DNA of 64,000 nucleotides from Ramazzottius varieornatus (GCA_001949185.1 BDGG01000008.1:1054001-1118000), one strand, 5' to 3'. Positions 3,181 to 40,700 are shown, counted from the stretch's first letter. Notes: generated by a model from the sequence alone, not told the origin. Program-made: numbers and translations.

Positions 3181-6104
3181 ATGCTTGTGAATATTGTGAC
3201 GGTTGGCGTTGGATTTATTGTTTTAATCTTCTACTTTGGTCTTTCTCCCTGTGGAATAACTGCAGCCAGTACGGACAGCAGAGCTTCCTGGATAAGGAAA
3301 GTCAAAAATGTCGATCCCGATTCTCCCTGCCCGAGGTAAGACTGCAAATTTGTTGGCGAAATTTTGTGAATATGGTTATTTATATATTGAGTATTTACTC
3401 ACCTAAATCATTCAAATATCTTGATTGTAGTTATAATTTCTAATTTTCCAAGAATAGTTGCTCAAAAGGTTTTCGTACGATAATTTTATTCTTCCTATAT
3501 GCAATCTTCTTTTTTCTATCTTCCAAGTTTCTTACTGCGGTTGAAATCGTTCCTGGTTTTATTGCAGTCAAGTTTTCTGTGATGGACCCTTACTGCAAGC
3601 CGTGCAACAGTTGCATATGTACCGAGACTCCAAATCATATGTGGACAAGCCGTTGAATAATCGCTCGGAAAAGGCAGTGCTGCGAAATTTCAACCAAATC
3701 AAAGAGCCGGTAACGAAAGAAACGCTGAAGATGTTCCTGGACGAAAACTTCTTACCTATAGGATCAGAGCTGATAAGGTACCGACCAGCGGACTGGAAAA
3801 ACATAGCAGAAGGAGGTCTCCCGTTGCACAAGAATATCTCCGATGACAGTCTGCAAGGCTTTGCCGAAATCATCCACGACAAATGGGAAAAGCTGGGCCG
3901 GACCGTACGTACGTAAAATTTAAATTGATCCTAAAAGCGAGAATCTTCTGAAAGTGATGAAATACTGCTGCATTCAAGAAGTAGAGCAGCATCTCCTTCG
4001 GGGAAATACACGTAAAACTGTACGGGAAATGCGTTTCTCTGATGGGTTCGCGCACGTGTCCTGTGTTTGCTTTGCAGTTGTGCTCGTGTTCCGAGGGGGA
4101 CGGCAATTTCCTCGTGTAGATCTCCCAATAGCTATAAACCAACGATGTCCATCGTTGTAGTTTTCTTTGGATGTGGCTGAGCATCCTCACCGACATTCTT
4201 TGGTCTACGTTCCCCATCCTTTCATTGTCCCTGGAGGTCGGTTCCGAGAAATCTACTACTGGGATTCGTATTGGGTTATCCAGGGACTTTTGGTTTCCGG
4301 CATGTCGGGAACAGCTCGTGGTATGCTTCTCAACTTCGTAAAGCTAATAAACCGGTAAGTTGGTTGTGACAAAGTCCTTGAGTAACATTTGAACGTAACC
4401 GAAACTGTATAGGTTTGGACACATACCCAATGGCAACCGAATTTACTACGAGAAGAGGTCACAGCCTCCGCTGTTGGCTATGATGGTTGATGTGTATCGC
4501 AAGCACCCGAACACCCCTCCCGCAGATCGCGACTCCATCCTCAAAGAAGTCCTGCCGGCACTCAAGGTCGAACACGATTTCTGGATGACCAGACGCAACG
4601 TTACTGTCAAGGTTGGCGGACAAGAGTATACGATGAACGTCTACCGAGGTGGTATTCGGAAACCACGCCCTGAGTCCTACCGCGAAGATGTCGAACACGC
4701 GGCCAGACTGACTGGTTTCCAAAGTAAGACTGTGTTTTCACAGCGTCCTCGTCATCGTTCAAAAATCATGGCTTCTTCCTCTCCTAGGCAGTGGCGATTT
4801 CTACGCTAATGTGGCTGCCGCTTGCGAAAGTGGACAGGACTTTTCGACGCGTTGGTTGGAGTCTCCGGAAGCCGACTTCAATACTATGCGGACGGAACAA
4901 ATTCTCCCCGTCGATCTTAACGCATTCTTGTGTGCCATGGAAAACTTGATGGGCCAGTTTTACGCTGCTTCGGGTTGGCCTATTCTCCCCCTTTTTTTCG
5001 TTACGAGTTTTCCTCATGCGGTACTGTTCACAGGCGACATGGAGAACGCTGATCTGTATCAGACACTGGCTCTAGCTCGTGGTGACGCCATTCATGCGGT
5101 GTTTTGGAACGAAACAAGATCCATGTGGATGGATTACGACTTAAGAGGTCGTCGACAGAAAGAAATTTTCTACGCGAGCCATATCGCGCCTATTTTCGCC
5201 CGGTGCACGGGAAATAAGGTGAACATCCTGCAGACGAGTTTCATGGAACGAGTAATGAAGTCTGACGACGTAAGTTCTCCAAGCTCATCACAAATTTTAT
5301 AATATTTTCCCTTCGACAATAGTGCGCCATGTGACCAATGTTTGGTTGCAGTTAAAGAAAATCTCCGCATTTCCCGGAGGTTTTCCGCAATCCTTGCAGA
5401 CTCCACGGGCTTCCTGTCAATGGGATTATCCTAACGCCTGGCCACCGAGCCAAATGATGCTTATCGAAGGTAAAAAACTTCTGAAACTAACTTGTTGCAA
5501 GTATGGCGTAAATGTCCGACGTTTATCTGCTATGGACACGGAATGGAATGGTTCAGATCTTTAATATGTTGTCGAACTTGTGTTTCTGACGGTGAGATGT
5601 TTTTCTGATCGAAGGTTTCGCTCTGAACCCGGATCTTCGCAAAGCCGTTATACCATGGGCCCAAAAGTGGCTCTCCGCTGTATACACCGGTTACAAAAAT
5701 ACTGGATACTTCTTCGAGAAGGTGGGCAGCCAAACTCTCCTGAATGGAATGCATATATCATAAGCAGACCGTGACTGAGACGTCGGTATATAATCTCACC
5801 AGATCGTCATCTCAAGTGGCGCACGTTCTCAAGGTTATTGGCTGAAAGCGTGACCACTGGCCAAAACGATCTCAGTGAAATTGTTTGCTGGGCTGAGTGA
5901 CCTCCCCAATAATGTCATACTAACACAAAAATGACAATCTGCTTTTAGTACGACGCACTGAACCCAGGAAAGTATGGCGGTGGTGGGGAGTATATCGTCC
6001 AAGAAGGTTTCGGGTGGACCAACGGCGGTATGCTGCGTCTCCTTGAACTTTACCCGACAGAGCTGACTAGTGCCGAAGTCGACATCGCGGCACCCGGAGC
6101 TTAG
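3181..6104 (+). CDS. TREH: alpha,alpha-trehalase (GH37), N-terminal signal/anchor, ~599 aa, 9 exons
   Basis: Exons 3181-3335, 3568-3904, 4161-4354, 4413-4723, 4788-4973, 5034-5269, 5352-5469, 5615-5721 and 5949-6104 join in frame (1800 nt). Motifs: DSKSYVD, PGGRFREIYYWDSY, PNGNRIYYEKRSQPP, RPESY, ESGQDFSTRW, QWDYPNAWPP, GGGGEY..QEGFGWTNG. Confidence 0.95.
5796..5878. repeat. ~80-bp palindromic intronic repeat, family A
   Basis: ACCAGATCGTCATCTCAAGTGGCGCA is identical to 37621-37646 and the copy ends in an inverted arm (CCACTGG...ACGATCT). Related copies at 13256-13331 and 13743-13811. Confidence 0.75.
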
Positions 6105-9100: not shown

Positions 9101-9819
9101 AATCAGAGAGTACAGTCTCGCGAGTTGTTAAAAGATCGTAGCGTAGAACCTGTTGGTAACTTGGTGCTCATATTTCCGTTGGATTTCCTAGGAATCTGAA
9201 TCTTCAAACTCTAGTAGTCCTGTACAACAAGCATAGTCTTACTGTGGGAAGTCGAAATCCTACAACAGCTACTACAGTACTCTCCTGTGTTCGTTGATGG
9301 GGAATTTGGATATTATCCCTTTAGGAATTACTTTATACATCTGGGTTCTTGTATTCCTCCTGTATAGTTAACGCGACTTCCGGATTCCTGTTCCTGGTCT
9401 GTGTTACAGTATTGTGTTATCGTGTACTATATCGGTCACACAATACCCAAACGGCGGCTGAAGCTTATCTGGCACTGGGCATTGGACCAGACCTAACCGT
9501 AAGTCACGCCTTTGCGCGCGCAAGTTCCAGTCTGTCTTGCACAACCATTATGGGTTTTGTTAGAACGCGAAGCGTAAAGGTATGCATGTGCATGCAACGT
9601 TGCGCAAACTTCTGGGTCTGTCTCGAAAGGCAGGCTGAACACTGAGAAAACTCTTCTTCACGATCGAATCTTTCGGTTGCTCCTCATGATTATCTTTCTA
9701 TGGGATCGTCTCTGTGTTTTCGGCTGCATTCCCTCAAGTTTTAACCATTTTGCGTTTGTTTGCTTTTGCAGGGTGATTGGAACTACGAGTGGGATTTTTC
9801 CTGGACGTACCTAGTGAAA

Positions 9820-12800
9820 ATGGTAGTGGAAGACGCGACTGCAGCAGGGCAAGCGGTGAAAATGGATGAGACAGACGCAAAGAAGGCCGGATCACAAATC
9901 GATAAGATGGCTTCCGCAGAACAGGCAGCAGCAGTTGTTCCTGCCGCAAACGGTGCTGCGGCCGGAGAGAAACACGATGGAGATGTGGAAAATTTGCCCG
10001 CTGACGTACAGCAGGTGAGTGGGTGAAAGTGATTCACTGAGAATACAAAACGTGTTCTTGATTGCTGATTGATCACTTAGAACTGCAGTTCAAGTTGAAC
10101 TTTGTTACTTTCAGTTGTTCAGTTTTCTGTGGCTTCGCTCAGTCAGTAATCTTTCGATTTCCAGATTGTTCAGCGTATCCGGTCAGACTCTTTCGCCGCA
10201 CGGGAACGCAAGACATCTGCTCCAGATATGCCAAAGAAACTGCACATATGGAGCTTTTATGGATACTACGAAAATTATGAGGCCGACTCCAAGATTGGCA
10301 AGTTCGAGTTTGATTTTCTCAACCCATATTCTTGATTAGGATCGATCTTGACCAGCTGTCGTACAATCGACGGATGACGGATCTAGCTTGAATAAGCAAA
10401 GCGTTGATTGAAAAGGTTTTCTTGAGGTGATATGTCAAGTCTGTTTGTTCTGTTGCAGAGGTGGAGTATCTGGGTTCCGTCGAAGACAACAAATTCGACA
10501 CATGGAAACTCCTGCTGGACAGCAAGCACATCCTCTGTGAAGAACCTCTGACATTCCTGTCGGAAAACACCTCGGAATTAGTCAAGCAGGCAGAAATCAA
10601 GGAAGATGAACACCCTGAGGTAATTTTGTTTGCAGATTCTATAACAATAAACGCCGATATTCTCCGACCTCAAGGTGTTGCTCGCATGAACCGTTCTCTA
10701 AATCGCTTGTCCGAGCGGTTAGTTAGGGTCGAGAGTAGGATGAGTGAATAAAGATGGAAGGAATTTACTTCGCTCCTTGGAGGGCAGTTCACAGATTTTA
10801 AGTTCGCCAGATAGAAAGAGGGTCAGATCTTGCCGAGACTAGTCAGAAGTGTGGCTCGATTTCTAGTTGGCAGGTACCATATGCATGTGGATCTGTTTAT
10901 CCGTCGTAGCAAGCGCTGAGCACGCGTGAGCAAGACGCGCTGAGCAAGTCGTGTCTTGAACGTGTCAGAACGATGGCAGAACATGGATTCTTTTGGGGTC
11001 TAGCAAAATTGTTTTTACTGTACAGAAACGTATCGCAAGGTTTCATATAATTACGCGAGTTTGAGTTGAGGTGTTTGGGTCTTTGGCAGTGTGTGGGAAG
11101 AAATAGACAGATGATACCGACCGTGGTTACGGTTTGCCGGTTGAAAACTGTCAGTTTCTTCAGAAAACCGGTAGGTAAAGTAAAGCTCTTGGGCATCTTC
11201 ATTTTCCCAAAGCTCTTGGGCATCTTCATTTTCTCAAAGTAAACGGTCAAATTTTGCCCAAGGAAATTGATGAGTATTTCGCTAAATTTTATCGGAATCA
11301 TACTGATAGGATCAAGTCGGTGATTTTTCAGCGTGGCTAAGCGATCGATCGGAACCGGTTCGCTCATAAAAAAACGCTTGTTACGACAACGTACAGCAAA
11401 TCTCCACGTGCCGATGGGACTTTTCCTCGTCGCACTTTGTCGTTTACCAAGACGAAAGTGCTGACGACGACAGTGAGAGCTCGCGAGACTATAGAGGCTC
11501 GTTTGCAGAAGCTCAGTATGTATTTTGAGATATTAGTAGATAGCGTGAAGGACGAACCTATTGACTGCTGCTTCTGCATCCCTCCTCGATAGATTTGCAG
11601 TAGATGATCTAAATCCGGACTTTCAATTGCACTGTTAGAAGACCCTCTCCAGTATGTTAAATTAGACCCGCTTTACAGCTGGTGAAAGTGCTAGGGGGTT
11701 ATTTCCCGGCCTTAGTTTACTAGAAGGCTCGACGGAGCGGAAATTTATTTCGCCGCGGCGAAGAACGGCGAAAAGTGTTATTTTCGTCGATCTTTCTCAG
11801 CGGTGTTGAAAATGCATCCCTTGCGGTGATCACGTGGTCGCATAACATCAGTCAATGATAACTGAGGCCACGTGGACCACCGGAAGGGATGCAGCTATAT
11901 AGTTCACGCTGTAACTGTCTTACGCAGTCGTATAGAGTGATTTATGTCTAATATCTGTCGTGTTTAATGTTTGTTTGTTCGTTTTAGACGTCTTGGGCTC
12001 TCTTCTTCCCTGCCTACCATCAGCTTCGCGAAGAAGAGCGGAAGGGTTCCTTCGCGGACTCGAAACTAGTGGCTGCTATTCTTGCCTTCAAAGACAGCGA
12101 GAACATCCTCCATCGACGTGGCTCCATACCTGACAAGTTCGCCAAGATTGAGAACGTCGGCGGATACATCGTCAACTTCTGCTTGGCCGTCTACACTGCC
12201 CAAGACGCACTCGACAAGAGTCCCAGTGGCAACAACTTGCCTCAGCTTGATCCCGTCGTTGAAGGTATGCATTCGGTGTTGCCTCTCAGATTTCTTTTCG
12301 TACTCTCAAACAGCTTGGGCTATTCAATCGTTTGCTTGTGCTGTAGAAGGGGCAGAGTCGTCCTCAAACACGCCCGAACCTGGTCAAGGTAGTCCCAATC
12401 AGTCTACCTTGAAGCGATCCATCTCCGTCTTGGCCGAGGCGGAACCCGTCACGCGAATCAGCAAATACAAGATCATGGTAGGCCGAAGACCGAGGATTTT
12501 GAACTAAATTTTTGCTGAGTTTCTCGCTGTCTTCCATTCACCGTGAACGTGAGAAAGTACTCCGTTTAAGGGAAGTCCAGGCTGACCGGCAGTATAGCAG
12601 CTGAATATGATATATGTGGTTGCTGTTGTAGTTGCCGATGCCCTTTCACAACATCACAGTGTCGAGCGGGGACGAGCCAAACTCTAGTTCGCAAAACGGT
12701 CAAAAAGAAAACATTGTCAAGAACATGGACGAAAGCAAGACTGCCAAGAGCGACTCCAATGGTAACGGTAGCGCAGCTGGTGGCCATGAAACCACAGTTA

Positions 12801-15800
12801 ACGCTGGTGTCGGTGGTCAAATCGCCGCAACTGGAACCACAACCAACGGAGGTGAGATCAGAAAGCCAAGAGAAATGTATGATACTGATAGATTAGGTCT
12901 CATTTTTGGGGTTTGGTAATTGCAGGCCAAGATCCATCGGACAGTTCGCAAGTGGTCACCAATGGTGACTCGGACACGAATGTCAAGTCCTCTTTGGCAA
13001 CTTCATCGAAGAACGAAGCAGAAGCCAAGCGCATCTTGATCGTGTCGAACCGTCTGCCAGTCAAGATTACACGCAAGGGAGACGACATGCAGTTCCAGTC
13101 TAGTGAAGGTGGCTTGGCGACTGGCTTGGGAACCATCTACCAGTCGGGCAACAACTTGTGGATTGGATGGCCCGGCGCCGTCTTACACCAGGTAAGAAGA
13201 AATCAGAGCGGAGATAGCATCCAGAGAATATTTGGAACCAGGCAAACAAAGTCGTCAAGATAGTTTTCCCAGGTGGCGCACGCTCCCAGCTAATGACACC
13301 GCAAACGTACGCCAGTTGGTAAACCATTTTTGTTAAGTTTATGTGACGAGCTTTCATTCATGGTTTGGGTTGTGATGATAGGAAGAGGAAGCTTCTGTGA
13401 CGGAGAAACTGGAAAAGTTGAACCTTCGGCCGGTCTTCTTGACTGACGAGGAGATCACTTACTACTATGAAGGCTTTTCCAACGAGACCTTGTGGCCGCT
13501 GTTCCATTACTTCCCGACCTACGCCACGTACCAGCCGAAAGACTACGACTTCTACGAGAGCGTCAACAAGAAGTTCGCTGATGCCATCTTGGCCATCGCG
13601 CAAAAGGACGACATTATCTGGATCCATGACTATCAGCTGCTGCTGGTCCCGAACTTGATTCGCCAGGCGTTGCCGGAAGTCACTATTGGGTAATTTGTCG
13701 TTTTAACTGGGTTTTTCTGAAACCTGGAAGCCCGCAGATAAGTTCACCCAGATCGTTTTTCAAGTGACAAAAACGATGAAACCGCGCGCCACTTGAAGAC
13801 GAAGTGGTGAAATCATTTGCCGACGTCGCAGTTTATTCTATGGTCGAAAGTATTCATTCGTCTTTTTCTTTCTAGATATTTCAACCATATCCCCTTCCCG
13901 TCGTTCGAGCTCTTCCGTCTCATCCCGTGGCGAAAGGAGCTGTTGGAAGGAATGCTGGGTGCCGACGTCATTGGGTTCCACACTTACGACGATGTCCGCC
14001 ATTTCATCTCCACAGTCATCCGCATCAAGGGAGCCCTTTCGTACGCCAATGAGCTAACCTACAACGATCGCATCATTGCTGTCGACGCCTTCCCCATCAG
14101 TATTGACTACAAGAAATACCAGTAAGTCGTGAACTCTAAGCCTCAAATTTCATTGGCTGTTTTCCGCAGAAAAACAGCCAATGAAATTTGAGGCACTGGA
14201 ACTCAGGGCCGTGCCCATGAGGATGATTGATACTTTGAATTTCTTGCATCTTTCTATGTTTTCGTCTTATATGGTTATCTTGTTCAGGTCTCAGGCAGTT
14301 GACATCGCGACACGATGCCTGGAACGCGAGCTGCTGCCAGTTATCCCTCAAGGAAAGCATTTGCTGTCCATCGATCGTCTGGACTACAGCAAAGGCATCA
14401 CCCAACGTCTTCAAGCCTTCGAAGTCTTCTTAGAACGGTACCCAGAATGGCACGGCAAGATGACGCTGATGCAGCTGGTGGTTCCTTCTCGCGACACGGT
14501 ACCGCAGTACAAGGAGCTGAAGGAAGAGATCAACCGGCGCGTCAGCGACATCAACGGCAAGTATGGCACGCTGACTTGGCAGCCTATCCAGCACTTTTAC
14601 CGCTCCTTCCCACTCCCTCTTCTGTCGGCCATGTACAAGATTGCCGACGTGGCGCTGGTCTCACCCATGCGAGATGGGATGAACCTGGTGTGTAAAGAGT
14701 ACGTGGCTAGTCGAACTGACGGTGACGGTGTGCTGATCTTGAGTGAGATGGCTGGTGCGTCGCGAGAACTGTCGGACGCCATCTTGATCAACCCCAACGA
14801 CATTTGGGCCTTTGCACAAGCCATCCATGAAGCGCTGAGTATGCCGGAGGAAGAACAGCGACGAAGAATGTCGGCTATGCAGGCGACCGTCTCGAGGTAA
14901 TGCATCTTTCTTTTGGGCACGGCCCTGAGGTGCACTGGATCGACATAACAAGGCCGTGTTGAAAATAGATTGCGGTAAATCAAAAGTCTGGGAATCGTAA
15001 CTGATTGTTGTCCGTTTTGTAGGTTTGATATCCACAACTGGGTCGCCAACTTTATGGCTAAGCTGTCGCAGATGAAGAAGCGCCAAGATGATATGCGGAC
15101 GCGTGTCATTTCGGGACCGATGAAAACCAAGATGATTCGTCGCTATAAGAACGCCAGCGATCGCCTCCTCATCCTCGACTACGATGGCACCTTGGTTGGC
15201 TTCCAGAAGCGACCCGAAGACGCCAAACCTGACGCCCCACTCATCCAGATCTTGAAAGGTAAATTTTTGTCGTAGAATCTGACGGAAGAACCAACAGAGG
15301 AATGTAGTATTGAATTTTTTAACAGATATGGTCGCTGACAAGAACAACACGGTTCTGATCCTCTCGGGCCGAGATCACAACACGCTCGAGCAATGGCTGG
15401 GTCAGTTGGGTATCGCCATCATCGCTGAGCATGGTGCGTGGTACAAGGACGTGGGTGCTGAGTGGAAGAGCCGAAATGACATTGGCGATGCCTGGAAGGA
15501 CGACGTTCGCAACGTCATGATGCTGTACACTAACCGCACTCCCGGAAGCTTCATCGAAGAGAAATCCTACTCCCTCGCCTGGCACTATAGGAAAGCCGAA
15601 GTGGAACTGGGCCAGTTGCGAGTCAGTGAGCTGACTACGGATCTGCGACACCACATTGCGGACCGAGGACTGCAGGTAGAATATAGGTTTTTCTTGATAG
15701 GGAAGAGGATAAATTTACGGCACGGCCCTGTTAAGATCCTGACTCAAATCAGGCCGTGCCCAGACTAATGACGAATTTGCCCATTTCTGAATGTTTTGCT

Positions 15801-16077
15801 GTTGTAGATTCTTCATGGAGATAAGGTGTTGGAGGTGAAGAGTGTAAGCGTCAACAAGGGTAGAGCGGCCAGAAGATGGTTGGAAAAAGCAGATTTTGAC
15901 TTCATCCTGGCGGCTGGAGATGACTACACCGACGAGGATACCTTCAAGGCCATGCCTCCGGATGCCATCACCATCAAGGTCGGCAAAGAGTTCTCGGCGG
16001 CCACCTACTTCTTGGCCAACTACAAGGAAGTGCGAGCCTTGCTGCAGGATTTTATCAAGGCTGGTTCAAGCCAGTAA
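9820..16077 (+). CDS. TPS: Bifunctional trehalose-6-phosphate synthase/phosphatase (GT20 + HAD), bacterial-type, with ~405-aa N-terminal extension; ~1133 aa, 13 exons
   Basis: Exons 9820-10014, 10165-10297 (GC donor), 10459-10619, 11988-12264, 12347-12477, 12632-12851, 12926-13191, 13382-13689, 13876-14121, 14288-14896, 15023-15258, 15326-15675 and 15808-16077 join with consistent phases (3402 nt). Motifs: IVSNRLP, GGLATGL, YYEGFSNETLWPLFHY, WIHDYQL, HIPFPS, DRLDYSKGI, RDGMNLVCKEY; HAD motifs LDYDGTL, LSGR, AEHG, GDDYTDED. The catalytic part is high confidence; joining of exons 1-6 is somewhat less certain. Confidence 0.92.
11182..11239. repeat. 27-bp tandem duplication in TPS intron 3
   Basis: AAAGCTCTTGGGCATCTTCATTTTCCC followed by AAAGCTCTTGGGCATCTTCATTTTCTC. 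Confidence 0.9.
11813..11901. promoter_or_regulatory. Imperfect ~27-bp-arm inverted repeat with two CACGTG E-boxes followed by TATATA, in TPS intron 3
   Basis: TGCATCCCTTGCGGTGATCACGTGGTC ... GGCCACGTGGACCACCGGAAGGGATGCA. CACGTG at 11831 and 11869, TATATA at 11896. The inverted repeat is seen directly; a regulatory role is only inferred. Confidence 0.35.
13256..13331. repeat. Family A palindromic repeat (inverted copy) in TPS intron 7
   Basis: CAAGATAGTTTTCCCAGGTGGCGCACGCT matches the reverse complement of the right arm of the 37621-37699 copy. Confidence 0.65.
13743..13811. repeat. Family A palindromic repeat (internally deleted) in TPS intron 8
   Basis: TTCACCCAGATCGTTTTTCAAGTG ... CACTTGAAGACGAAGTGGTGAA. 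Confidence 0.6.
14140..14194. repeat. Perfect 24-bp-stem hairpin in TPS intron 9
   Basis: GCCTCAAATTTCATTGGCTGTTTT-ccgcaga-AAAACAGCCAATGAAATTTGAGGC. Confidence 0.95.
14914..14961. repeat. ~50-bp hairpin repeat, family B (GGCACGGCCCTG..CAGGCCGTGCC)
   Basis: TGGGCACGGCCCTG-21nt-CAAGGCCGTGTTG. A similar copy lies at 15719-15762 and a lone arm at 14202-14217. Confidence 0.7.
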
Positions 16078-21726: not shown

Positions 21727-24700
21727 ATGCCTCCCAAGGCCGTAGCTTCCACATCCCGTGTCGAGGGTAAGTTGGATTCCACACATGTTCCTTACTAGGT
21801 CTTAACCCAGTTGGCAACTTTTCACTTTCAGGCGGCCGGAATTCCTCACCAAAGAAAGCTGGTGAGTGCAAACTGCAAAGTTGCTACAAATTATATAAAC
21901 ACGTACTATCTTTCTGATGGTCACAAAACGTTCGAAACGTTTCATCTTGGTCCCAACAGCCGGCAAAGTCGCTACAGCCAAAGGATACAAACGACCGGAC
22001 AAGCTTCCTGCTGGTTTTGAGATTGAGGACAAAATGTCCAAGCGAACATGGAAGATCGGAGAAATGATTGGACAAGGTGGCTTCGCAGATGTCTATTCGG
22101 GTAAGTTTGCAGCTGATCCCAAATCTCAACCTACCAGCTCCTCTCGTACGGCTAGTCGAAAGAACAACATAGACTGATGCGTGTTCTCTGTAGTGACGGA
22201 TCAAGCATCGAAAGCCAGCTCGACGACTGCTTCGAAATACGTCCTCAAGCTGGTAATTATCCCGTAATTTAACCGTTTTAACGTGCTAGAAGAGTGTGAA
22301 ATACGTAGTGTGTTCGCCCTATTTGCTGGTTATCTGGGTTCAAGATGTGCCTCATCTTTCTGTTTTGTAGGAGCCCAAAGACAACGCTCCACTTTTTCAA
22401 GAATGCCATTTTTTCAAAGCTGCAGCCAAGAAGGAGCTCAGTATGCTCTAACATAGTCTTCCAGTACAATACTGTTCGTGTTGAATTTCTCTCTATTTTT
22501 TCTCCATATTTGAAGTCGCTGAGTTTGAACGAAAGCTTGGACTGAAGCACCTTGGAGTTCCTGAGTATGTAGCCAGTGGTGTGATGGAGTTCAACGACAA
22601 GTCCTTCCGATGGCTGGTCATGCCACGCTTGGGCCGTAACATTCACCAGATCCTGGAGGACAGCCAAGGAAAGTTTTCGCGTCAAACTATCATCATGCTG
22701 GCATCCCAACTCGTGAGTATGCAGGCGTGTAGAAGAAGTCGCCGTTTCTTGTTTTCGAAATGTCTATCGACTTTTTTTTGATTATGTCTTCCGTACTGTA
22801 GATTGACATTCTTGAGTACATTCATACACAAGGATACGCTCACGCTGACATCAAAGCGGGGAACCTCATGACAGGTGCCACCAAGTCAGATGCTGACCAG
22901 ATCTACCTCATTGACTATGGCTTGGTGAAGAAGTTTATGTCGGAAGGACAGCACATCCAATACGCCGAGAACCCCAAAGCTGCCCACGACGGAACGTTGG
23001 AACTCACCAGCATTGATGCCCATAAAGGAGCCGGTAATCTCTTTTTCCTTTCCAACCTGCTGGCTGTTCACTCGGTGGACGTATTGTACCCTTTGTCTTT
23101 CATAGCGCCAACTCGTCGAGGAGATCTCCAGATATTAGGCTTCAACGTGATCAAGTGGCTCATCGGGACACTTCCGTGGTCCGACAGCACTGATGCGAAC
23201 TTTGTCCGATCTCAAAAAATAACGTATATATAGCCACCTGATAAAATCCGTCCTCTTTCTACATTATTTTACTGACAGTCTCTTTTGTTTAGGTATCTTC
23301 AGAATATAACGGAGTTTTTCCGGGTGGCTTTTCCTCCCAACGAACAGCCGCCCAAAGAGATTGTGGACTACTTCAAGGAGATTAAAGATTTGAAGTATGA
23401 AGACAAGCCGAACTACAAAAAGCTTCGCGAGATCTTCTCAAAGGCTAGCAAAGATCTAAAGGTGCGAAAAAGTGATTTGTTTGGAGCGGCTACCACCAAC
23501 GCAGAAGTCGCCCCTGGTTCCCCGAAGAAAGCCACGCGAGGCAGGAAGGTCGGTGCATCGAGGAATGGCGATCAAGGCGAGACTTCGAAGGCCTTACCCA
23601 AGAAACGTTCCACCACGACGACGGCTAGCAAGACTTCGGTTGGCTCGCTGAACGGACATTCCAAAGACGACGTGAAACCTACTACCTCCTCCACAACAGG
23701 TAAAATGTTGCCTACAGTACCTACATACCCTGAAGCCTGAACCGCATATGCATCGGGATGAGAGAGTATGCACGTGAATGCGGAAGCGTAAGATACAACG
23801 AGTCATCCACCTGCATACACTGGGCTGTGCAAATCTTGTAGGGTCTGTGTATGCACGTTTGGATTGTGGAAGGCTTCTGTTGGCCTGTAGTGAATAATAT
23901 TGTTACTCTCAGGTTTAGCGAAGGCCAGATCGGCCCGAGCTCCTTCGGATGACACAGCTAACGCTCCTCGTGCGTCATCGTCGGGTTCCGCCGATGGCAT
24001 AAGAGTCTCCAGCTCGGAGGTATCAGCGGTTGTGGCGGGTCTGCCGGTTAACCAACAGCGAATCATCAAGGCCGCGTTACAAGAAACGAAGAACGGCGAT
24101 CAACTTAGTGAGGAGGTACTGTCAAAGCTGCCTGCGGGCTCACGTCGAAAGCTCAACGCCGCGGTGGCCGCCGATAACTACCCGAATCGGCAAATATCGG
24201 AGGATTCTGAGATGACCAACGATGATGACGAGGTCCAGCCTGTGACGGCCAAAGACTCGAAAGGTATACACTCCGTTCGTTCGAAATGTAACTCTTTTTT
24301 CAATTTCAAAAGAGGGAACTCAGGAAAGTTAACAAGGCTGCTCGCCATGCCCGAAACAGCAGGTCAGCTGTGTCTTGATCACTTGATCAAGCTAAGTATG
24401 GCATGGGGTAATCTTTGTGTTAATGTAGTTCGGCATCTAGCTTTTCATGCTGTAGGGTGGACGTATAATACGCCACAAATTGAAATGGAAAAATAGGAGT
24501 ATACATTTCGAACGAGCGGACTGCAGCGAGAAATTTGTCACTTGTAATATTGTCGAACTAATGCTGTGAATAGTGAGCAAACTCCGACGTTACTTGTTAC
24601 CGTAGGCTTGACGAAGGATGCTGCACCCAGTCGTTCTACTCGACCAACTCGCGCAGCTGCTAAAGGCGTCAACTATCGCGAGGAAGGGGTGTCTCCGCAT

Positions 24701-25117: not shown

Positions 25118-25945
25118 TCAACCGAAATTGCGAGGTTTGCAGATTTTAGCACAAGTCAAAGGGCTCGTGGTCCCAGTCAGAAGATATGTGCAGCCCTCGT
25201 CAGGTGCTCCGTGGTCACACAAGCATTGATCAATGTGACTTCCGGCAGTGCAATCCTTTGGAGTTGTACCCGAAGGGTCCGAAGCGCAAGTTTGCGCGCA
25301 GGTCAGAGCAGTTGCAATTCCGGTTCCCATACCATTAAAAGAACAATTGGGATCAGGAACTAGACCTGCGTCTATGCAGGTTCGGATAAGAGCGTCTCCA
25401 GTGAGTACAGTTGTAGTAGCGACCGTCGTAGTGGTGGCTGTTACTGCTGTAGTTGTGCTTGATGCCGTGCCAGTGGCGGTAGCTGCTGTGGTCGTACTGG
25501 TGGTGGCGGCGGTACGGATCGTCGAGGGTGAGGGAGTGAAAAGGAAGTAAGAGTTGCCCACGAACACGTCGAGATTGCTTTGGTCGTTGACGGTGAATTG
25601 GCCAGGCAAGATAGGTGAATCGAATTGTCCCTGAAACTGGGAGGGGATGGTATCAGTACTGAGGCAGCTTACTCGGCAGTTGACAGGCACGTTGTTGGAG
25701 TCGACGATCACCGGCACGTAGGAACATCCATCAGGTGCTGCCTGGCCGGCCAGAGCTTGACATCCAGCCGCGGTGGTTTGACCGGCTGAAAGGGGAACCA
25801 ACCCAATATACTGGAAAAACTCAGGGTTGATTAGTTGGTTCAGATAAGAAAAGCTTTGGCGCTTTTGACGGTTTGTGTTGTCTCTGGTTGCCACAAGACC
25901 TATAATCAATACGACGAAGATCGATAGAACGGTTAACCGTTTCAT
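25118..25945 (-). CDS. Single-exon secreted protein: signal peptide, furin site, Thr-rich linker, two Cys-rich repeats
   Basis: MKRLTVLSIFVVLIIGLVA signal, RQKR|Q, Thr/Ala tract, then CIDAGLVPDPNC..LTCAQTC and CLCDHGAPDEGC..LTCAKIC. Confidence 0.8.
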   Translation of the reverse strand: MKRLTVLSIFVVLIIGLVATRDNTNRQKRQSFSYLNQLINPEFFQYIGLVPLSAGQTTAAGCQALAGQAAPDGCSYVPVIVDSNNVPVNCRVSCLSTDTIPSQFQGQFDSPILPGQFTVNDQSNLDVFVGNSYFLFTPSPSTIRTAATTSTTTAATATGTASSTTTAVTATTTTVATTTVLTGDALIRTCIDAGLVPDPNCSFNGMGTGIATALTCAQTCASDPSGTTPKDCTAGSHIDQCLCDHGAPDEGCTYLLTGTTSPLTCAKICKPRNFG

Positions 25946-27012
25946 GGTGAACAAAACTTTGACGACCAACTCGAAAAATCTCGCAGGAACCTAGTCGATG
26001 ATGATTCTCTCGTTCGGTCCATGCCTGTTCTGCTTTTTAAGTAATCTTCATGGGCGGCTTCGAAGGAAACTGTCTCGATCGTGCCCCAAATCTTCATTGA
26101 TGAGTCGCAATTAGGTAGTTCGCACGCTGGGTAGTGCGTTCAATGGGTTCGTGAGGTACTACGGAAAAGCAGGGGTAATTTGGGGCGTCCTTATTGGTTT
26201 GATGACACTTACAGATGTGAAGCAACTTTCGTTTTTTTGCTGCTGCTGTTCTCCGCTTAATTTTGCTGCTGCTCTTCTCCGCTAAACTTAATGGTTTGTG
26301 ACAGTAAAAGGCGCTTAACAAAAGGTTCTTGATATCAGCTAACTTAGGTTGCCGGCCCCTCTTATTCGGGGCAACATACTACATTTGAATTCGAGGCGAT
26401 TATATTAGGTACTATTGAATGAGGACACTCTGAGCAGATGATTACACTAAACTGTTTCGATTACGAAAAGATAGGCAGCTCGTTCTAAGCATTGTTCGTC
26501 TACAACGAAGTCAGTCAGAGTTTTGTCGGAGACGTTGCCACAGACGAAAAAGCGGGGTTTTAACTTCCAATGTAACAACTAATTGTCTTATCATACAGCA
26601 CGATTTAACCGTTTTCCCCTAATCGCTAATTTACGTGCTCTTTCCGATCCATGGCGACCAGCGTTTTATGGGCAAAATATTGATTATTGGGAGGCCGACA
26701 AACAAAACCGGGATGATGTTCATCCCAAGTGGCGCAGCTTCTTTTTTATTAGCTGGAAACGTGCGCCAGTTGAGATAAAGACCATCCCAAAATTGCCTGT
26801 CGGCCTCTCGGTTTTTCCGCTTAAATGTCAAAGGGATAACTGCTTTCGCGTTAATGGTATTTTACTGGGCGTTCAGAATTCCGGTAGAATATCAAATAAG
26901 AAGGTTTAATGCACAGTAACTGAGAAATAGATGACGAGGTATCTGGTTGTAAACGGACACCATGGTGGTGGAATTTATTGGTGATACGGGTCGCGAGAAC
27001 TCTTGGTTGACG

Positions 27013-34701: not shown

Positions 34702-37700
34702 ATGAACAGGTTCGAGCAGCTGAGTGTGGAAGCGTATTCTTCGATCCTGAAGACTGAGGAGAATATTGCGAAGCAGCGATCGGTGGGCTTGTACGATGGA
34801 GAAGAAAGGGTAAGTCGTCATTCGGATATCCATTCCGACAGCAATAATTATTGTACGTGCTGCAACACTCTACCGAGGAGCAGATCTCATGTCCTCTCGT
34901 TAGCCCGACGACAGTAGTGTCCTAGAAACCTACGGCTCTGCCATGGTCCTGTGGGTTACATCTTTTCCTGAAGACCAGGCCGTCATGTGTCTCGCGGAAG
35001 TCATCGCAGACGACAAGTCCAAACAGATTTTATTGACTACAGTATCACGGAACTGAATTTCCAGTGTTCCATAGAACTGAGTTTCGCTCGATCAATTCTT
35101 TCACAGCAGCGTTCTCACGTCTAAGAGAAACGAGAATCCCCAACGAATCGTGATCTTTAGAGTTATGACATACTGGGCATACTCTGTCGAAAAGCAGCGA
35201 AAAAATAGCTTAATGATCAGACTATTTCCGTTGCTTCTTTTTCTGCAAGCCTTTTCCGAAATTCTTCTTTGCTTTCTTCCTGTTCTTATCATACCCTTCG
35301 ATGGGCTCCGTTACTTTCCTCTTCGCGTTCTTGTTTAGCGCCGTATCCAGGTCAGCATCTTCCGCTGCAATCTTATACTGATCGAGCGCCAAGTCTTTCA
35401 GAAGTTCTTTCTTTTCTTTGCTCGTCTTCTCGTACTCTTCCGCCGCTTCCTGCAGTTCGTCATCCAGCGACATGGCCAGCGGTTCCATGTTCGCTGCCTG
35501 ACTCCATATTTGCTTCCTTCCTTCGTTCAACGAGGCACCTATCCTTTGCTTGACCAAACCCTGGAAGTAGCTCGAGAACTTCTTGATGGTCTTACCGTGG
35601 AAGCCCAGCAGATGCGAGACTTGCATATTCAGGTCGGTCGATACTTCTTCCATCGTTTTTTTCTGCAGGCCCAGACCGATCAGCATCGACGTCTGGATAG
35701 CGCTGAGAGTCAGTCCGCCGAGCTGGCCCAAGAAGAACGTGCGTGCGAGGATGGGCAGAAGATCAGTGATGACGTGATGGTCGATCAGGTTGCGACTGTA
35801 TGCATCTAGCCGTCTCAAGTCGTACTTCGTCAAATGTTCTTCGGCTTGTTCGGCTGTAAAGGGCTTATAGAACGACTCTGGAGGCACGGCTTTATTGTTC
35901 AGAACATCCAGGGCCAGTACTGGAAGAAAAAGTTATGATGAGCTCATTCAACAAACCAGTATGAAATTTCCAGCGAACCGGAAGTGAACCGTTAGTAGAC
36001 CGGAAGTCGTCAATTTTTGAGTAGAAACTTGGCTTCGTACCAGGTTTGAATGTTTTGAACTGATAGCCGAGAAGATTGATGAATCGCCTTCGGAAATCGA
36101 TGAAGAACTCCCGTATCCATTCTTTTTGCCCTTCGCCTTCTCTTTCGAGTCCTCTGAGGAGAATGGCGCTGTGTTCTCCCGTTAGCTCGTTCTCAGTTTG
36201 ACGAAGGTACACCGGTACGTACCCAGCTCGCTTCCAGAACCTCAGCAACTCGATCGTCAGGCCAAAGGAAGCCCCTAACCAGTCGACTTTTTCGGCTCGT
36301 CGTTCTGTCAGCTTGAAGAGAAGTGGCGGAAGATCGCTTCTTGGCTTTACCTGCAAACAGAAAGAATCACCGAAATTTCCAACTATAATGGTAAATGAGT
36401 CTTGCCAGGTTTTTCTTACCTTTTCCTTGAGTAGATCGAGATCTTGTTCGTCTTTGATTTTGCTCAGTTCACTCGGCGCACTTTCGGCGGTCTCTTCGTC
36501 CGTCAGCGGAATCATGCCTTTGTAGTACTCTTCGATAAGAGTAAGAGCGCGACTTCCGTAGCCTTTGTTCTGGTAGTTCGGGTGGACGGCAATGCGGACT
36601 ATTCGAGCACCGGAAAGCGAGACAAAGTTGTTGTCTTGAAATTGTTGAGCCACAGTCCAGGGAATCATGTCCCCCGATGGGCGCATGCCATGGGAGAAGT
36701 TCCTCTCGGCACTCTTCTTCGAAATCGCGCCTTCCAAACACACCTAAAGACAGTCACCCAATATCGTTCAGGGTTGATTCGAAAAGAGTTGGATTTCTTA
36801 CCTGAACTACGCAGTACACTTCAGGCAACTCCAGCTTCGTGTTGTCGACAGGACCCAACAGGCAGAAGATATGGTGACCAGGAGCATCCGACAGCATTTG
36901 CAGGTCGTTAGGCGAGTTCTTGTAGTGCGAAGCCACCATGATGGCCATCACTCGTTGAAGGAACTCTTCTGAAGCTTTGTGGTAACAGAAGAGCGTGTCG
37001 CGGTTGATGTAGTACAGCTCGCAGTCTTTCGGAAGCGGAACACCTGAAGAAGAACCACGTTCATCGGTTTTCCTTAGAGTAATATTATATTGGATGGTTT
37101 TATTATCTACCTACCGCCTTGATAGCTCGCGTAGTTCTTCTCGACGGAGACGTTCAGGCACAACAGCTCGTTTAACCATGCTTCGACGGGATCTCCAGGC
37201 TTGTATCGAATACTTTCGTTCAGCTGGAGCTCTCGGAGTTTCCTGGCGTTGGCGTTGTTCCCGCTCGTCGATTGTTTCTTCAGCTGGTCGATCAGCTTCA
37301 AAGACAGCGCTCTGCCCGTACCTTCGTATCCGTTGATGGTGGAAGCCATGAAGACCAGATAGGGACCGATCAGTTCTCTCACGAGTGGCAGAGGAATCGC
37401 TGCGGCTTCGTCGATGACTACCAATTCAGCTTGGCCAAGTTTGTGCGCTTCGTTAGGCGAAATGTACTGAATGGTTTGTCGGTGGTTGCGGAAAATGTTG
37501 AGACGGACGACGGCTTTGTTTAGCGTTGGGTTCGTCGATTCGACCTGCAAAGGAAGGATAGGTAATTTCATCTTATTCGAAATTAGTATCTGAAGAACAG
37601 GACGTAAGCATATGAACTGAACCAGATCGTCATCTCAAGTGGCGCAGGTTTTCATTGGTACTGGCTAGAAGCGCTCGCCACTTGGGAAAACAATCTGGTA

Positions 37701-40700
37701 CAAGACATTTTGCCCAGGTCCCAAATAATCAGAAGATGCAGACAGTCCCGAACCTTCTCGTAGTCGGTGTGGTGAGCGTATCCAAGTGCGGAGAAACCCT
37801 TTTCGATGAACTCAAAGAGTGTCTTGAGGTTTTCAGGTGAAGGACTGGTCACAAAGATGTTGGCGTACCCATGGGCGACGGCTGAAGCGATGGCAAGACC
37901 CAAGGCCGCAGACTTGCCTCTTCCACGAGCTGCAGTCAGTGTGACGGTACTACGAAGGGTGCGTTCTGTGATTGCATCGACGAACTGGAGGAGAGCGTGA
38001 GCCTGGTCGACGGTACGGCAGCAGTTGATGAGGGACCCGACAGGTTGGGTGTCTTGCATGCTCTGTTTGATGGCTTTCAGCTCGTTGTCTTCTTCGCGCT
38101 CTTTGGCTTTGGGAACGGATGCGAGGGAATGCAGGTTGGCGATCTTAGAGGAGATTGGTAAGATGTTGTAACGCTGATCCATCACGATGGCCGCCTGACA
38201 AGAACCTGGAACAGAAAGGCACTGTCAAGTTTTGATACCTTGATTTCCATGTTACTGACGTTACAACGCATGACGTCACGATATGTCATTGCGTTAGCAT
38301 GTGTCATGTCATGCTGTAATGCATGAACACATGACGTCCCGAACTATAAAGTCCGGCGGTTTGATTGATTGATGCGTTGATTGACTACGTCTGATAAAGT
38401 AATATGGTCTTTTTTCCCACAATCTTACCAAGTGAAAGGATGAATCTTTCGTTAAATCGAGGAACAAGCTCTTCGTGCGCTTCCGTTCGATAGCGAGCGT
38501 GGACATCCATGGAGATGGTATACAGCTGTCGCAGCGAAGACACGCTTTTCAGCAGCAGAATAATCAGCCCACCGCCTTCGACAGTCTCCATCGTTCTGGC
38601 CAGGATGTTCGGCGTGATGGCTTCGAAATCTTGCAGGACGCACATGCCGAAAGTGTTACCGAGGATTTTGTGGGTGTCAGCGTAGAAGCAGTAGCGTATC
38701 TTCGTGGTGGCGACGAAGCGTTCGATGGGGTTGTTGTCGTTGATGCTGACATTACCACCAGCGCGAATCTTCCGGTCCAGCTGCTTTTTCTTGCGGTTGC
38801 CTCGGTTGGTGGTGCTGAAACCCAGACCGCCATCTTTGTCCTTCTTGTAACACCATAGGACTGTAGGCTGAGCACGAACCGAAGCTTGGCTGAGGATGTA
38901 GTGGAGATTAGGAATTTGCTCCTTGGCTTTGTCGCCGACGATGATAAACAACGAACGATGGTGATTCGCAACGCCGCTCTCGATCAGGAGCTTGATGCGG
39001 TTGTCGATCTTCTGTAGATTCTGCATCTTGCAGAGTTCGGTCCCGAAATCTCGTAGACAAGCATACAAATAGCAGGCCAACGATAACGAAGAAACAATCT
39101 TTCTGCGCGACTGTCCCACGATAATCTGAAATTCTGAATATTTCGTAATTTCGTTCTTCCCTCGTTGATAACCCCTCGAACCCCATTTTCACTTCGCACC
39201 GTTCGATTGATTGAGGATCGATTCTGTAATTCAGAGAACTGATCAGCAATCAAGCAAACGTGTCGTAGTAAAAGGAGGGTTTGAGGGGTATAGTACTGTA
39301 CCACCTTACCGAATCGGTCTTGTTCAGCCTTGTTGCGTTGGGTGATACACTTGGACTACTGTTTGAGCGCAAACTGCGCACTGCGGTTCTTATGGTGCGG
39401 ACCGCTTCCTCAAGTATCTTGTCAATTGACCTGATTTTCTTTTGCTGCAGTCTCCCGTTTTCGATCGAGGAATTCTTTATCTAACCCCCACGAACTTGAT
39501 ATGGATCGACGAAGAGGATGAGGTGAGAGTAGAAGTGTGATCCGCATTCGGAGCGCATCACGCATGGCCGAACTGGGTTCGATGGGCTGTTAATCAGCCT
39601 ACTTCCGGCTTTTAAATCTTGGACATGTTCCTAGCTTGTCGTTCCCTTATACTATGCCTGTGCTACCTTATTGTGCTTTTTTTAGTCATTGGCCATCAGA
39701 CTACATCTTTCAACTATCATTCTAGCGGAAGACCAACGCGCGGGATCCGACCAAAGGTAAGCTTGAGTCTCTATACGCTCCCTGCAGAGTGTACAGTCGC
39801 ATGTATTTCCTGTCTGGAGTAACCGATGCTTATCGCTTTGTCATGTGGCTACGACCTATCGTTCCATCGCTTGCAGCTCCAAGATTAGTCTGCACTTGAA
39901 CCCGCCTTCGGAAAACTTTTCGCCCGTTCAAGTCAGCGAAGCCAACCATGTCAAGCTGTCATTCAGGGAAGGCGGCATGACCGAGGTACCGTAATACATC
40001 GCGGAAGGTTTCTTGACGGTCTGACACCCGTAAATTTTCAGTAGTATTGATATCACTAATGTTTCTTTCAGTAGTTCTTTCGCCGTCTGTCGGACACTTT
40101 GATGAGGAAACGATGGGAGACCGTGGTCGGTGTAAAACCTGTTGGTCCTCCGGTGTGTACGATAGTAATACCCCTGCTGAGTAGTGATGATGAAATTTAA
40201 TGACCAATCCTGTTGGCTGTAAGCCTGCAACCGTTAAACCAATCTTCAATACCGGTATTACTGTTTTAGAGTCGTCGGGAAATGCGGACAGGTATTTCGG
40301 GCATCGAGAAGACTCTTCAGGCTCAGCAAGCTACTGTGAACATTCATATCAGCAAAGCCTTCGAAGACCTAAGCAACCTGATGACCATGGCTAAAGACAC
40401 GGTGAACCTGACCAAGAACCTGGTTTCGCGCCTGAAGAACAAGCAAGGAGAAATAACAGAAGATGAAACAACGCAACTCAAGTCCTATCTATTGAGCCTG
40501 GGTGTGGACGATCCAGTCACTCGTGATGCCTATGGAAACGATAACTCGTACTACCGAGGACTGGCCATAGAAGTGTCCAGCGTCATGTCCAAGCCACTGA
40601 AGGTAATAGACCGGTATCCCGGAAACGCAGCAGTGTACGGTAAGGTTTCTCGTTGTAGGAAAAGGGTGGATTGATGACGCTAACCGACGTCTATGTGTAC

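What the first reader, a model, noticed from the sequence alone, without database searches (positions are those of the whole stretch)
9820..13030. Bacterial-type TPS-TPP has gained a ~405-aa N-terminus with an unrecognised domain and tandem PKA/14-3-3-type motifs
Seen: six exons upstream of the GT20 start (KRILIVSNRLP) splice in frame, including one GC-AG intron. They encode a disordered leader, a ~150-aa aromatic-rich globular-looking segment (KKLHIWSFYGYY...YIVNFCLAVY) that I cannot assign to a family, and a Ser/Gly/Asn linker. The segment is bracketed by RKTSAP (10207-10224) and RRGSIP (12114-12131), both RxxSxP and basic-basic-x-S, with RKGSF (12039) between them. Established: bacterial fused TPS-TPP begins near the SNRLP motif, and phosphorylation plus 14-3-3 binding controls yeast Nth1 trehalase and plant class II TPS proteins. 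Inference: a horizontally acquired enzyme may have been put under host kinase/14-3-3 control by a newly attached regulatory module.
Basis: partly seen in the sequence, partly recalled or inferred. Interest (0 to 1): 0.8.

Follow-up and report, generated by a model that had tools for sequence, protein, structure and literature searches.

The report
Bacterial enzyme grafted onto tardigrade gene
This tardigrade's trehalose-making enzyme, which likely came from bacteria, is spliced in one reading frame to the end of a worn copy of the animal's own sugar-dehydrogenase (DHDH) gene, whose intron pattern it still carries; the host part is likely no longer an enzyme, and kinase control through it is possible but untested.

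Summary
The gene is Ramazzottius varieornatus RvY_13060 (published primers match both ends). Exons, the GC-AG intron and the motif coordinates are all correct. Spliced contigs from several studies join the 406-aa leader to the TPS-TPP (1,133 aa). The domain is not unrecognised: it is a decayed dimeric dihydrodiol/D-xylose dehydrogenase (DHDH, Gfo/Idh/MocA family), a resemblance already noted in one sentence by Kondo 2024. Not found in print: the leader is a host gene. Its six introns have the DHDH phase order 0,1,0,1,0,1, and four sit at exactly the aligned sites of invertebrate DHDH genes. It groups with tardigrade DHDHs (98/98), and R. varieornatus keeps an intact copy (RvY_13227). So a Bacteroidota TPS-TPP was fused into the last exon of a DHDH copy: an HGT-chimera. 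The cofactor fingerprint, the EKP lysine and the C-terminal half are lost, so the leader is likely catalytically dead. Residues ~75-235 are kept better than the rest. The PKA/14-3-3-like motifs are derived and over-represented. They lie inside the DHDH remnant, fit only the relaxed consensus, and their conservation could not be tested. New member of a known kind.

The parts
9213..9498 (+). Non-coding 5' exon, spliced to 9772 in one run (start is the contig's end, not a mapped start site)
   Evidence: X10 only; in-frame stops upstream of the ATG
9820..10014 (+). Coding exon 1, aa 1-65, phase 0; low-complexity leader whose 3' end (LPADVQQ) aligns to the end of DHDH exon 1; glycine-rich cofactor fingerprint lost
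   Evidence: ATG matches the published RvY_13060 primer
10165..10297 (+). Exon 2, aa 66-109, phase 1, GC donor; DHDH exon 2 equivalent (133 vs 112 nt); holds RKTSAP at 10207-10224
   Evidence: weak alone (hhalign probability 20%)
10459..10619 (+). Exon 3, aa 110-163, phase 0; DHDH exon 3 equivalent (161 vs 164 nt); CEKP reads CEEP (10539-10547), conserved His reads Lys121
   Evidence: Pfam GFO_IDH_MocA E=0.013, below cut-off; hhalign 95.5%
11988..12264 (+). Exon 4, aa 164-255, phase 1; DHDH exon 4 equivalent (277 vs 253 nt); holds RKGSF (12039), RRGSIP (12114) and NVGGY (12153-12167) in place of DxGxY; GGG motif lost
   Evidence: hhalign 94.9%
12347..12477 (+). Exon 5, aa 256-299, phase 0; decayed DHDH exon 5 equivalent (131 vs 125 nt), tandem NAGNAG acceptor
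   Evidence: intron sites and length; 1 of 9 conserved columns kept
12632..12851 (+). Exon 6, aa 300-372, phase 1; starts LPMPF at the DHDH exon 6 start, then Ser/Gly/Asn-rich (220 vs 151 nt)
   Evidence: no profile match on its own
12926..13026 (+). Start of exon 7, aa 373-406: 33 residues before the GT20 start, as long as the last DHDH exon of L088; likely fusion zone
   Evidence: inference, no sequence similarity left
13027..16077 (+). Bacteroidota-type fused TPS (GT20) - TPP (HAD), aa 407-1133, over exons 7-13 with six further introns (phases 0,2,2,2,1,0)
   Evidence: 227 of 231 conserved columns kept; stop matches the published primer

Best explanation
The gene is a chimera in which an intact bacterial-type trehalose synthase/phosphatase is spliced in frame to the last exon of a host DHDH gene copy, which likely supplied its first promoter and exons and has since decayed into a likely non-catalytic leader. 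Shown: one spliced 1,133-aa frame; DHDH homology of aa 75-235; DHDH intron sites; loss of the cofactor fingerprint, the EKP lysine and the C-terminal half; an intact DHDH elsewhere in the species. Inferred: (1) a Bacteroidota TPS-TPP came to lie at the 3' end of a tardigrade DHDH copy and replaced its stop, either by insertion there or by later joining of neighbours; (2) a second DHDH made this copy dispensable; (3) trehalose is made by aa 407-1133 alone; (4) aa 75-235 persist as a partly folded pseudo-enzyme remnant on a ~170-aa flexible linker, under weak constraint, with at most a modulating role.
For: Intron sites: a MAFFT alignment made without intron data puts window introns 1, 2, 3 and 5 exactly on template positions 31, 69, 123 and 249, and intron 4 one codon from 208. 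Invertebrate-type DHDH genomic contigs have introns there with the same phases: site 1 in L116; site 2 in 7 loci; site 3 in 10 loci with both ends; site 4 in L114 and L152, acceptor in 7; site 5 in L088, donor in 8 of 8 examined; site 6 (phase 1, split Gly) in L088. Rough chance of 4 of 5 exact matches 3e-8. Tree: the leader falls in a clade with RvY_13227 and Hypsibius OQV20496.1 at 98/98, inside the animal clade at 100/98; placing it with the seven bacterial-like rows is rejected, p-AU 0.0003. All 120 listed TPS-TPP relatives lack a leader (alignment starts within 39 residues of their N-terminus), and 0 of 80 bacterial loci carry a DHDH-type gene. Decay is uneven: 26 of 48 conserved columns kept in exons 2-4 against 6 of 38 elsewhere, Fisher p=0.0003.
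Against: The leader is a long branch (2.25), and forcing it just outside the animal clade is not rejected (p-AU 0.18). Sequence homology is demonstrable only for exons 2-4. Exons 1, 5, 6 and 7 are assigned by intron phase, length and short anchors; exon 6 gives no profile match and intron 6 does not align to a template residue. The intron-bearing loci are unnamed, none shows all six introns, and the 30 interrupted at site 3 form only 6 clusters at 70% identity. Three spliced loci (L111, L166, L200) lack intron 3, and a phase-2 DHDH intron at 166 is absent from the window. The introns of RvY_13227 itself could not be read. The uneven decay may partly reflect easier alignment of the core. Promoter capture is not shown.
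Confidence: 0.78

Rival explanations
1. Same origin, but the DHDH remnant has been re-used as a phosphorylation switch: PKA-type kinases would phosphorylate S83, S184 and S209, and a 14-3-3 dimer would bind S83 and S209 to tune trehalose synthesis.
For: The motifs are derived: 108 animal DHDHs average 0.009 RxxSxP and 0.037 PKA-type sites per protein. 0 of 949 TPS-TPP windows and 0 of 824 DHDH windows of 158 aa hold 3 PKA-type or 2 RxxSxP sites; shuffle P=0.002 and 0.0004 for aa 78-235. On the confident model of the relative P0250 (pLDDT 97.7), S184 maps to a coil and S209 to a short helix/loop. S83 maps to helix 19-28, where the window has two new prolines (P85, P88). mRNA level is reported flat at 10-20 TPM (PMC5531438), which leaves room for control at protein level.
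Against: Motif classes chosen after the fact; the control windows overlap and come from related proteins. The basic pair of RRGS aligns to an RK pair in P0250 and Hypsibius DHDH, and KGS to KAGT. Neither site fits R[S/aromatic][+]pSXP. The bacterial part holds two more PKA-type sites, one of which (RRMS) also occurs in 14 of 115 bacterial relatives. No orthologue to test conservation; one literature search showed no Ramazzottius phosphoproteome paper.
Confidence: 0.25
2. The leader is still an active sugar dehydrogenase, making a three-activity enzyme.
For: [quoted passage not shown] The Glu of EKP and the Tyr of DxGxY are kept, and Asn for Asp in that motif also occurs in the full-length relative P0260.
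Against: Fingerprint region 2 of 10 conserved columns kept; K98 reads E; H80 reads K; GGG lost; C-terminal half 4 of 28 kept. PMC11612644 names the fingerprint and EKP as cofactor-binding elements.
Confidence: 0.03
3. Both parts came from a bacterium, as a fused gene or as neighbours, and all introns were gained afterwards.
For: Bacteria have DHDH-type proteins (L082, 29% over aa 83-193). One of 80 TPS-TPP loci (L062) has a distant Gfo/Idh/MocA gene nearby, and genome G001 has one about 20 kb away. Exclusion from the animal clade is not rejected.
Against: Shared intron sites with animal DHDH genes; p-AU 0.0003 against the bacterial-like group. The leader scores 89 bits on P0250, 40 on L082 and at most 6 on the Bacteroidota proteins L202-L210. 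The five Bacteroidota genomes searched gave no close DHDH-type match (best 29-33% identity).
Confidence: 0.03
4. Two separate genes (a DHDH pseudogene and a TPS-TPP) wrongly merged.
For: One small contig in X1 joins a different 5' exon (ending 11651) to exon 4, so shorter transcripts may exist.
Against: Single contigs cover exon 1 to exon 13 in 3 of 4 runs; the frame is open over 1,133 codons; the coding sequence was amplified from adult cDNA with primers at 9820 and 16077 (PMC8277472 methods).
Confidence: 0.01

Closest known systems
Ramazzottius varieornatus RvY_13060 tps-tpp (PMC5531438, PMC8277472, PMC11175437)
   Same: It is this gene: both published primers match. Bacteroidota origin, introns and flat expression are in print. 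[quoted passage not shown]
   Different: In the passages read, these papers do not treat the leader as a host gene, map its introns, note the loss of catalytic residues or mention the motifs.
Animal dimeric dihydrodiol dehydrogenase / D-xylose 1-dehydrogenase (DHDH; PDB 2o48; RvY_13227; Hypsibius OQV20496.1)
   Same: Sequence of aa 75-235 (31-39% to the nearest relative P0250), intron sites and phases, tree position.
   Different: Fingerprint, EKP lysine, conserved His, GGG and C-terminal half lost; expanded from ~335 to 406 aa; fused to TPS-TPP.
HGT-chimeras of arthropods (Kapoor 2026, PMC13389597), e.g. the damselfly anoctamin-ABC chimera and oskar
   Same: Metazoan and bacterial intervals in one transcribed frame, an unfused paralogue in the same genome, a long branch after fusion.
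   Different: A tardigrade, outside that survey (0 occurrences of 'tardigrad' or 'intron' in its main text). Here the host partner appears to be a whole gene that decayed while the foreign enzyme stayed intact; in oskar the foreign domain lost catalysis.
Bacteroidota fused TPS-TPP (~740 aa)
   Same: 62-66% identity over aa 406-1131 for the best 25; 227 of 231 conserved columns kept.
   Different: No leader in any of the 120 listed relatives; no introns.
Yeast neutral trehalase Nth1 (PKA/14-3-3 control; PMC10847541) and human pseudo-enzyme GFOD1 (PMC11612644)
   Same: Nth1 shows the proposed kind of control; GFOD1 shows a Gfo/Idh/MocA fold re-used without cofactor.
   Different: Nth1 is a hydrolase and its sites were shown by experiment; GFOD1 keeps the whole fold and dimer, which this remnant does not.

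Membership tests
DHDH / Gfo/Idh/MocA oxidoreductase | Sequence homology to the family | tested here: met
   77 bits over aa 75-235; exons 3 and 4 hhalign ~95%; Pfam hit on exon 3 alone is below cut-off
DHDH / Gfo/Idh/MocA oxidoreductase | Glycine-rich dinucleotide fingerprint after strand 1 | tested here: not met
   2 of 10 conserved columns kept in exon 1; aligned stretch reads AAGEKHD
DHDH / Gfo/Idh/MocA oxidoreductase | CEKP motif | tested here: not met
   CEEP at aa 136-139; motif role from PMC11612644 passages
DHDH / Gfo/Idh/MocA oxidoreductase | His79, Asp176, Tyr180 (2o48 numbering; their catalytic role is recalled, not read here) | tested here: not met
   Lys121, Asn219, Tyr223; Asn also occurs in P0260
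DHDH / Gfo/Idh/MocA oxidoreductase | C-terminal beta-sheet half | tested here: not met
   4 of 28 conserved columns kept beyond template 208; exon 6 no match
DHDH / Gfo/Idh/MocA oxidoreductase | NADP-dependent dehydrogenase activity | not testable with these tools
   needs an assay
Bacteroidota-type fused TPS-TPP | GT20 domain followed by HAD phosphatase with conserved motifs | tested here: met
   Pfam PF00982 and PF02358; DYDGTL, RDGMNLV, EHGAW, GDD motifs present; 227 of 231 columns
Bacteroidota-type fused TPS-TPP | Phylogenetic nesting within Bacteroidota | not tested
   No TPS tree built here; nearest named loci are Bacteroidota; published tree in PMC8277472 section 2.6
HGT-chimera | Metazoan and non-metazoan intervals in one reading frame | tested here: met
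HGT-chimera | Contiguous chimeric mRNA | tested here: met
   primers in PMC8277472
HGT-chimera | Unfused host paralogue in the same species | tested here: met
   P0280 = RvY_13227, 360 aa
HGT-chimera | Purifying selection on both intervals (dN/dS) | not testable with these tools
   no orthologue or variant found
PKA / 14-3-3 client (Nth1-like) | Relaxed RxxSxP and basic-basic-x-S motifs above chance | tested here: met
PKA / 14-3-3 client (Nth1-like) | Strict mode I consensus R[S/aromatic][+]pSXP | tested here: not met
   RKTSAP and RRGSIP both miss positions -2 and -1 (consensus)
PKA / 14-3-3 client (Nth1-like) | Sites in extended, accessible segments | tested here: inconclusive
   mapped only on the relative P0250: one helix, one coil, one short helix/loop; the spliced leader was not folded
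PKA / 14-3-3 client (Nth1-like) | Phosphorylation and 14-3-3 binding | not testable with these tools
   needs experiment

The most novel reading that the evidence does not exclude
A foreign enzyme took over an entire host gene, and the host's dead dehydrogenase core was then recycled as its control domain: three new PKA-type sites, two of them 14-3-3-like, arose on the old fold and switch trehalose synthesis in a tardigrade whose tps-tpp mRNA does not change on drying.
Probability: 0.22. Interest if true: 0.78.

Novelty: new member of a known kind. Interest (0 to 1): 0.45.

Why it matters
It shows in unusual detail how a bacterial gene can become an animal gene: the six host introns are a fossil of the DHDH gene it was joined to. 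It extends HGT-chimeras beyond the arthropods surveyed. It also bears on an open point in Kondo 2024: tps-tpp knock-outs laid eggs that never hatched, and the authors could not exclude harm from the surviving N-terminal fragment. That fragment is now defined as a dead DHDH lacking its C-terminal half, which gives exact boundaries for deletion and rescue tests.

Tried and rejected
No whole genome was held, so RvY_13227's introns and synteny could not be read. Exon 4 against longer proteins found nothing at E<=1 among 61 candidates, so no fused orthologue was obtained; this is weak evidence of absence. Exon 4 gave no PDB or Pfam hit and only sub-0.9 Atlas hits; exon 3 gave only non-significant PDB and plasmid hits, though 6 of 8 plasmid hits were annotated Gfo/Idh/MocA or anhydrofructose reductase. 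No DHDH paralogue in the window. Laying X21, X22, X23 and X8 at 80% likeness gave no variants (X21 laid nothing), so no dN/dS. No run was on record as RNA; spliced joints show the laid contigs are transcripts. Alignment A1 misplaced exon 2 and was dropped. Folding P0250 without an alignment failed (pLDDT 38.6); repeated with one. The mixture-model tree did not finish; its quick version gave the tardigrade grouping 77-88 SH-aLRT. Which DHDH is the parent is unresolved: sister to Hypsibius OQV20496.1 at 95/82, but sister to RvY_13227 is not rejected (p-AU 0.36). Of 119 loci from the motif scan, 65 were not DHDH and were dropped. Earlier-finding look-ups returned nothing. Supplements of PMC8277472, with the activity figure for the expressed protein, could not be read. 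No complex prediction was run. Rejected: unknown fold, active dehydrogenase, bacterial origin of the leader, merged gene model.
Full report
Identity and gene model. The finding lies in a 13-exon gene on the + strand, ATG 9820 to stop 16077, 1,133 aa with no internal stop. All 12 introns are joined in 4 of 4 runs laid, from four studies; one contig runs from exon 1 to exon 13 in X1, X5 and X10, and from exon 1 into exon 7 in X6. A fifth run, X8, shows the 8 joints within the shorter stretch laid. The GC-AG intron is real. The gene-specific parts of the primers with which Hara 2021 amplified R. varieornatus RvY_13060 from adult cDNA (PMC8277472, methods section read) match 9820-9837 and 16059-16077 exactly. 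The merged-gene worry is therefore settled.

The enzyme part. Aa 407-1133 are a fused GT20-HAD protein, 62-66% identical to ~740-aa relatives for the best 25 hits. It keeps 227 of 231 columns conserved in 115 of them. The 80 best genome loci carry Bacteroidota names, apart from two called 'uncultured bacterium'. All 120 listed relatives (the best of 7,331 found) align from within 39 residues of their own start to model aa 396-450, so none has a leader. I built no TPS tree; bacterial origin rests on these hits and on PMC8277472 section 2.6 (read) and PMC5531438 (passages).

What the 'unrecognised' domain is. Kondo 2024 (PMC11175437, passages) remarks in one sentence that the long N-terminus resembles trans-1,2-dihydrobenzene-1,2-diol dehydrogenase. 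I tested this. Single exons give weak signals: exon 3 hits Pfam GFO_IDH_MocA at E=0.013. The spliced leader scores 77 bits over aa 75-235 against a profile of 108 animal DHDHs, and 78 bits against a 9-sequence profile whose best of 500 shuffles is 5 bits. Exons 3 and 4 match a DHDH alignment at ~95% probability, exon 2 at 20%, exon 6 not at all. The nearest single protein, P0250 (89 bits; next 68), has mammalian DHDH 2o48 as top solved relative.

Host or bacterial? (a) Introns. A motif scan of metagenome contigs gave 119 loci, 54 of them DHDH. Spliced ones have introns at template (L161) positions 31 (phase 0), 69 (1), 123 (0), 208 (1), 249 (0) and, in L088, a phase-1 intron 151 bases on, followed by a 33-residue last exon. 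The window's first six introns have phases 0,1,0,1,0,1. An alignment made without intron data puts introns 1, 2, 3 and 5 exactly at 31, 69, 123 and 249, and intron 4 at 207; a tandem acceptor three bases on would account for that offset. Exon lengths, window against DHDH, are 133/112, 161/164, 277/253, 131/125 and 220/151, and 33 residues precede the GT20 start in exon 7. A rough chance figure for four exact matches of five is 3e-8. Limits: the loci are unnamed; none shows all six introns; sites 1 and 6 rest on one locus each; the 30 loci interrupted at site 3 form only 6 clusters at 70% identity; three spliced loci lack that intron; a DHDH intron at 166 is absent here; and the scan motif sits beside site 3. 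(b) Tree. In a 37-row IQ-TREE analysis the leader (aa 55-310) lies with Hypsibius OQV20496.1 (95/82), P0250, P0260 and RvY_13227 (98/98) inside the animal clade (100/98); a 161-row FastTree agreed. Grouping it with seven bacterial-like rows, only one of them named, is rejected (p-AU 0.0003). Pushing it just outside animals is not rejected (p-AU 0.18), as may be expected of a branch of 2.25. (c) Neighbours. 0 of 80 bacterial TPS-TPP loci hold a DHDH-type gene and 1 holds a distant family member; five Bacteroidota genomes gave only 23-33% matches to a DHDH-type query. Together these make the leader a tardigrade DHDH copy, most likely the whole gene, with the bacterial frame attached where its stop used to be. 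Whether the foreign gene landed there or was joined later cannot be told.

State of the remnant. Of 86 columns at least 90% conserved in animal DHDH, 32 are kept: 26 of 48 in exons 2-4 and 6 of 38 elsewhere (Fisher p=0.0003). The fingerprint is gone, CEKP reads CEEP, the conserved His reads Lys, GGG is lost and the C-terminal half has become Ser/Gly/Asn-rich. PMC11612644 (passages) names the fingerprint and EKP as cofactor-binding elements. The Tyr of DxGxY is kept; its Asp reads Asn, as it also does in the full-length P0260. The leader is therefore likely a dead enzyme. The better-kept core suggests some constraint, but this is not a dN/dS test and the core is also the part easiest to align.

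The motifs. But they sit within the DHDH remnant, partly reuse inherited basic and Gly-Ser/Thr residues, and miss the strict mode I consensus (PMC10847541, passages). On the model of P0250 (pLDDT 97.7) S83 maps into a helix that the window's new prolines would likely break, S184 to a coil and S209 to a short helix and loop. I put kinase/14-3-3 control at about one in four.

Novelty. The gene, its bacterial origin and the DHDH resemblance are known. The class, HGT-chimera, is described for arthropods (PMC13389597: abstract, passages and conclusions read). I found no paper stating host origin, intron conservation or catalytic loss for this leader in searches; the library lacks most subscription papers, and the supplements of PMC8277472 were unreadable. 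PMC13389832 and PMC2228372 were read as passages only. Verdict: a new, well-documented member of a known kind; interest 0.45.

Noticed in passing
window ~3200-6104 (+); Pfam hits 4399-4806 and 4712-5299: A spliced GH37 trehalase gene ends at 6104, about 3.7 kb before the TPS-TPP ATG on the same strand, so synthesis and breakdown genes are neighbours. Origin and co-regulation not tested; not seen mentioned in the passages read.
   Followed up: partly
window ~11460-11651 joined to 11988: One X1 contig (depth 12, only 25 bases beyond the joint) splices a 5' exon from inside intron 3 to exon 4; X8 has low cover there too. The first open in-frame ATG would be Met299, giving an enzyme without the DHDH core and motifs. 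Weak hint of a second promoter.
   Followed up: partly
window 9213-9498 and 9639-9819: Two 5' forms: a spliced upstream non-coding exon (X10) and unspliced starts at 9639-9716 (X1, X5, X6).
   Followed up: no
P0302 (Hypsibius OQV20496.1): This DHDH, sister to the leader in the tree, is itself odd: DRSGY for DxGxY and no Trp before RFFP. The lineage may have been diverging before the fusion.
   Followed up: no
P0001, P0002: Unnamed TPS-TPP relatives closer to exon 10 (76%, 73%) than any other listed hit, with bacterial-type starts but short, apparently frame-broken ends. Possible nearest donor lineage or other eukaryotic copies.
   Followed up: partly
L204 (G001:C6 411326-411928) and L062:12860-13525: Distant Gfo/Idh/MocA genes near bacterial TPS-TPP genes (about 20 kb and 4 kb away). 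L204 scores 1.9 bits with the leader; L062 gave no hit at E<=1.
   Followed up: yes
window 22802-56844: Ordinary eukaryotic neighbours: kinase piece 22802-23230, NAT10 35225-39188 (-), proteasome subunit 42670-43203 (-), MFS transporter 46293-47803 (-), WD40 53226-53723, transketolase-like 55331-56844 (-); weak LPMO AA14 hit at 25121-25990 (-), E=0.006.
   Followed up: no
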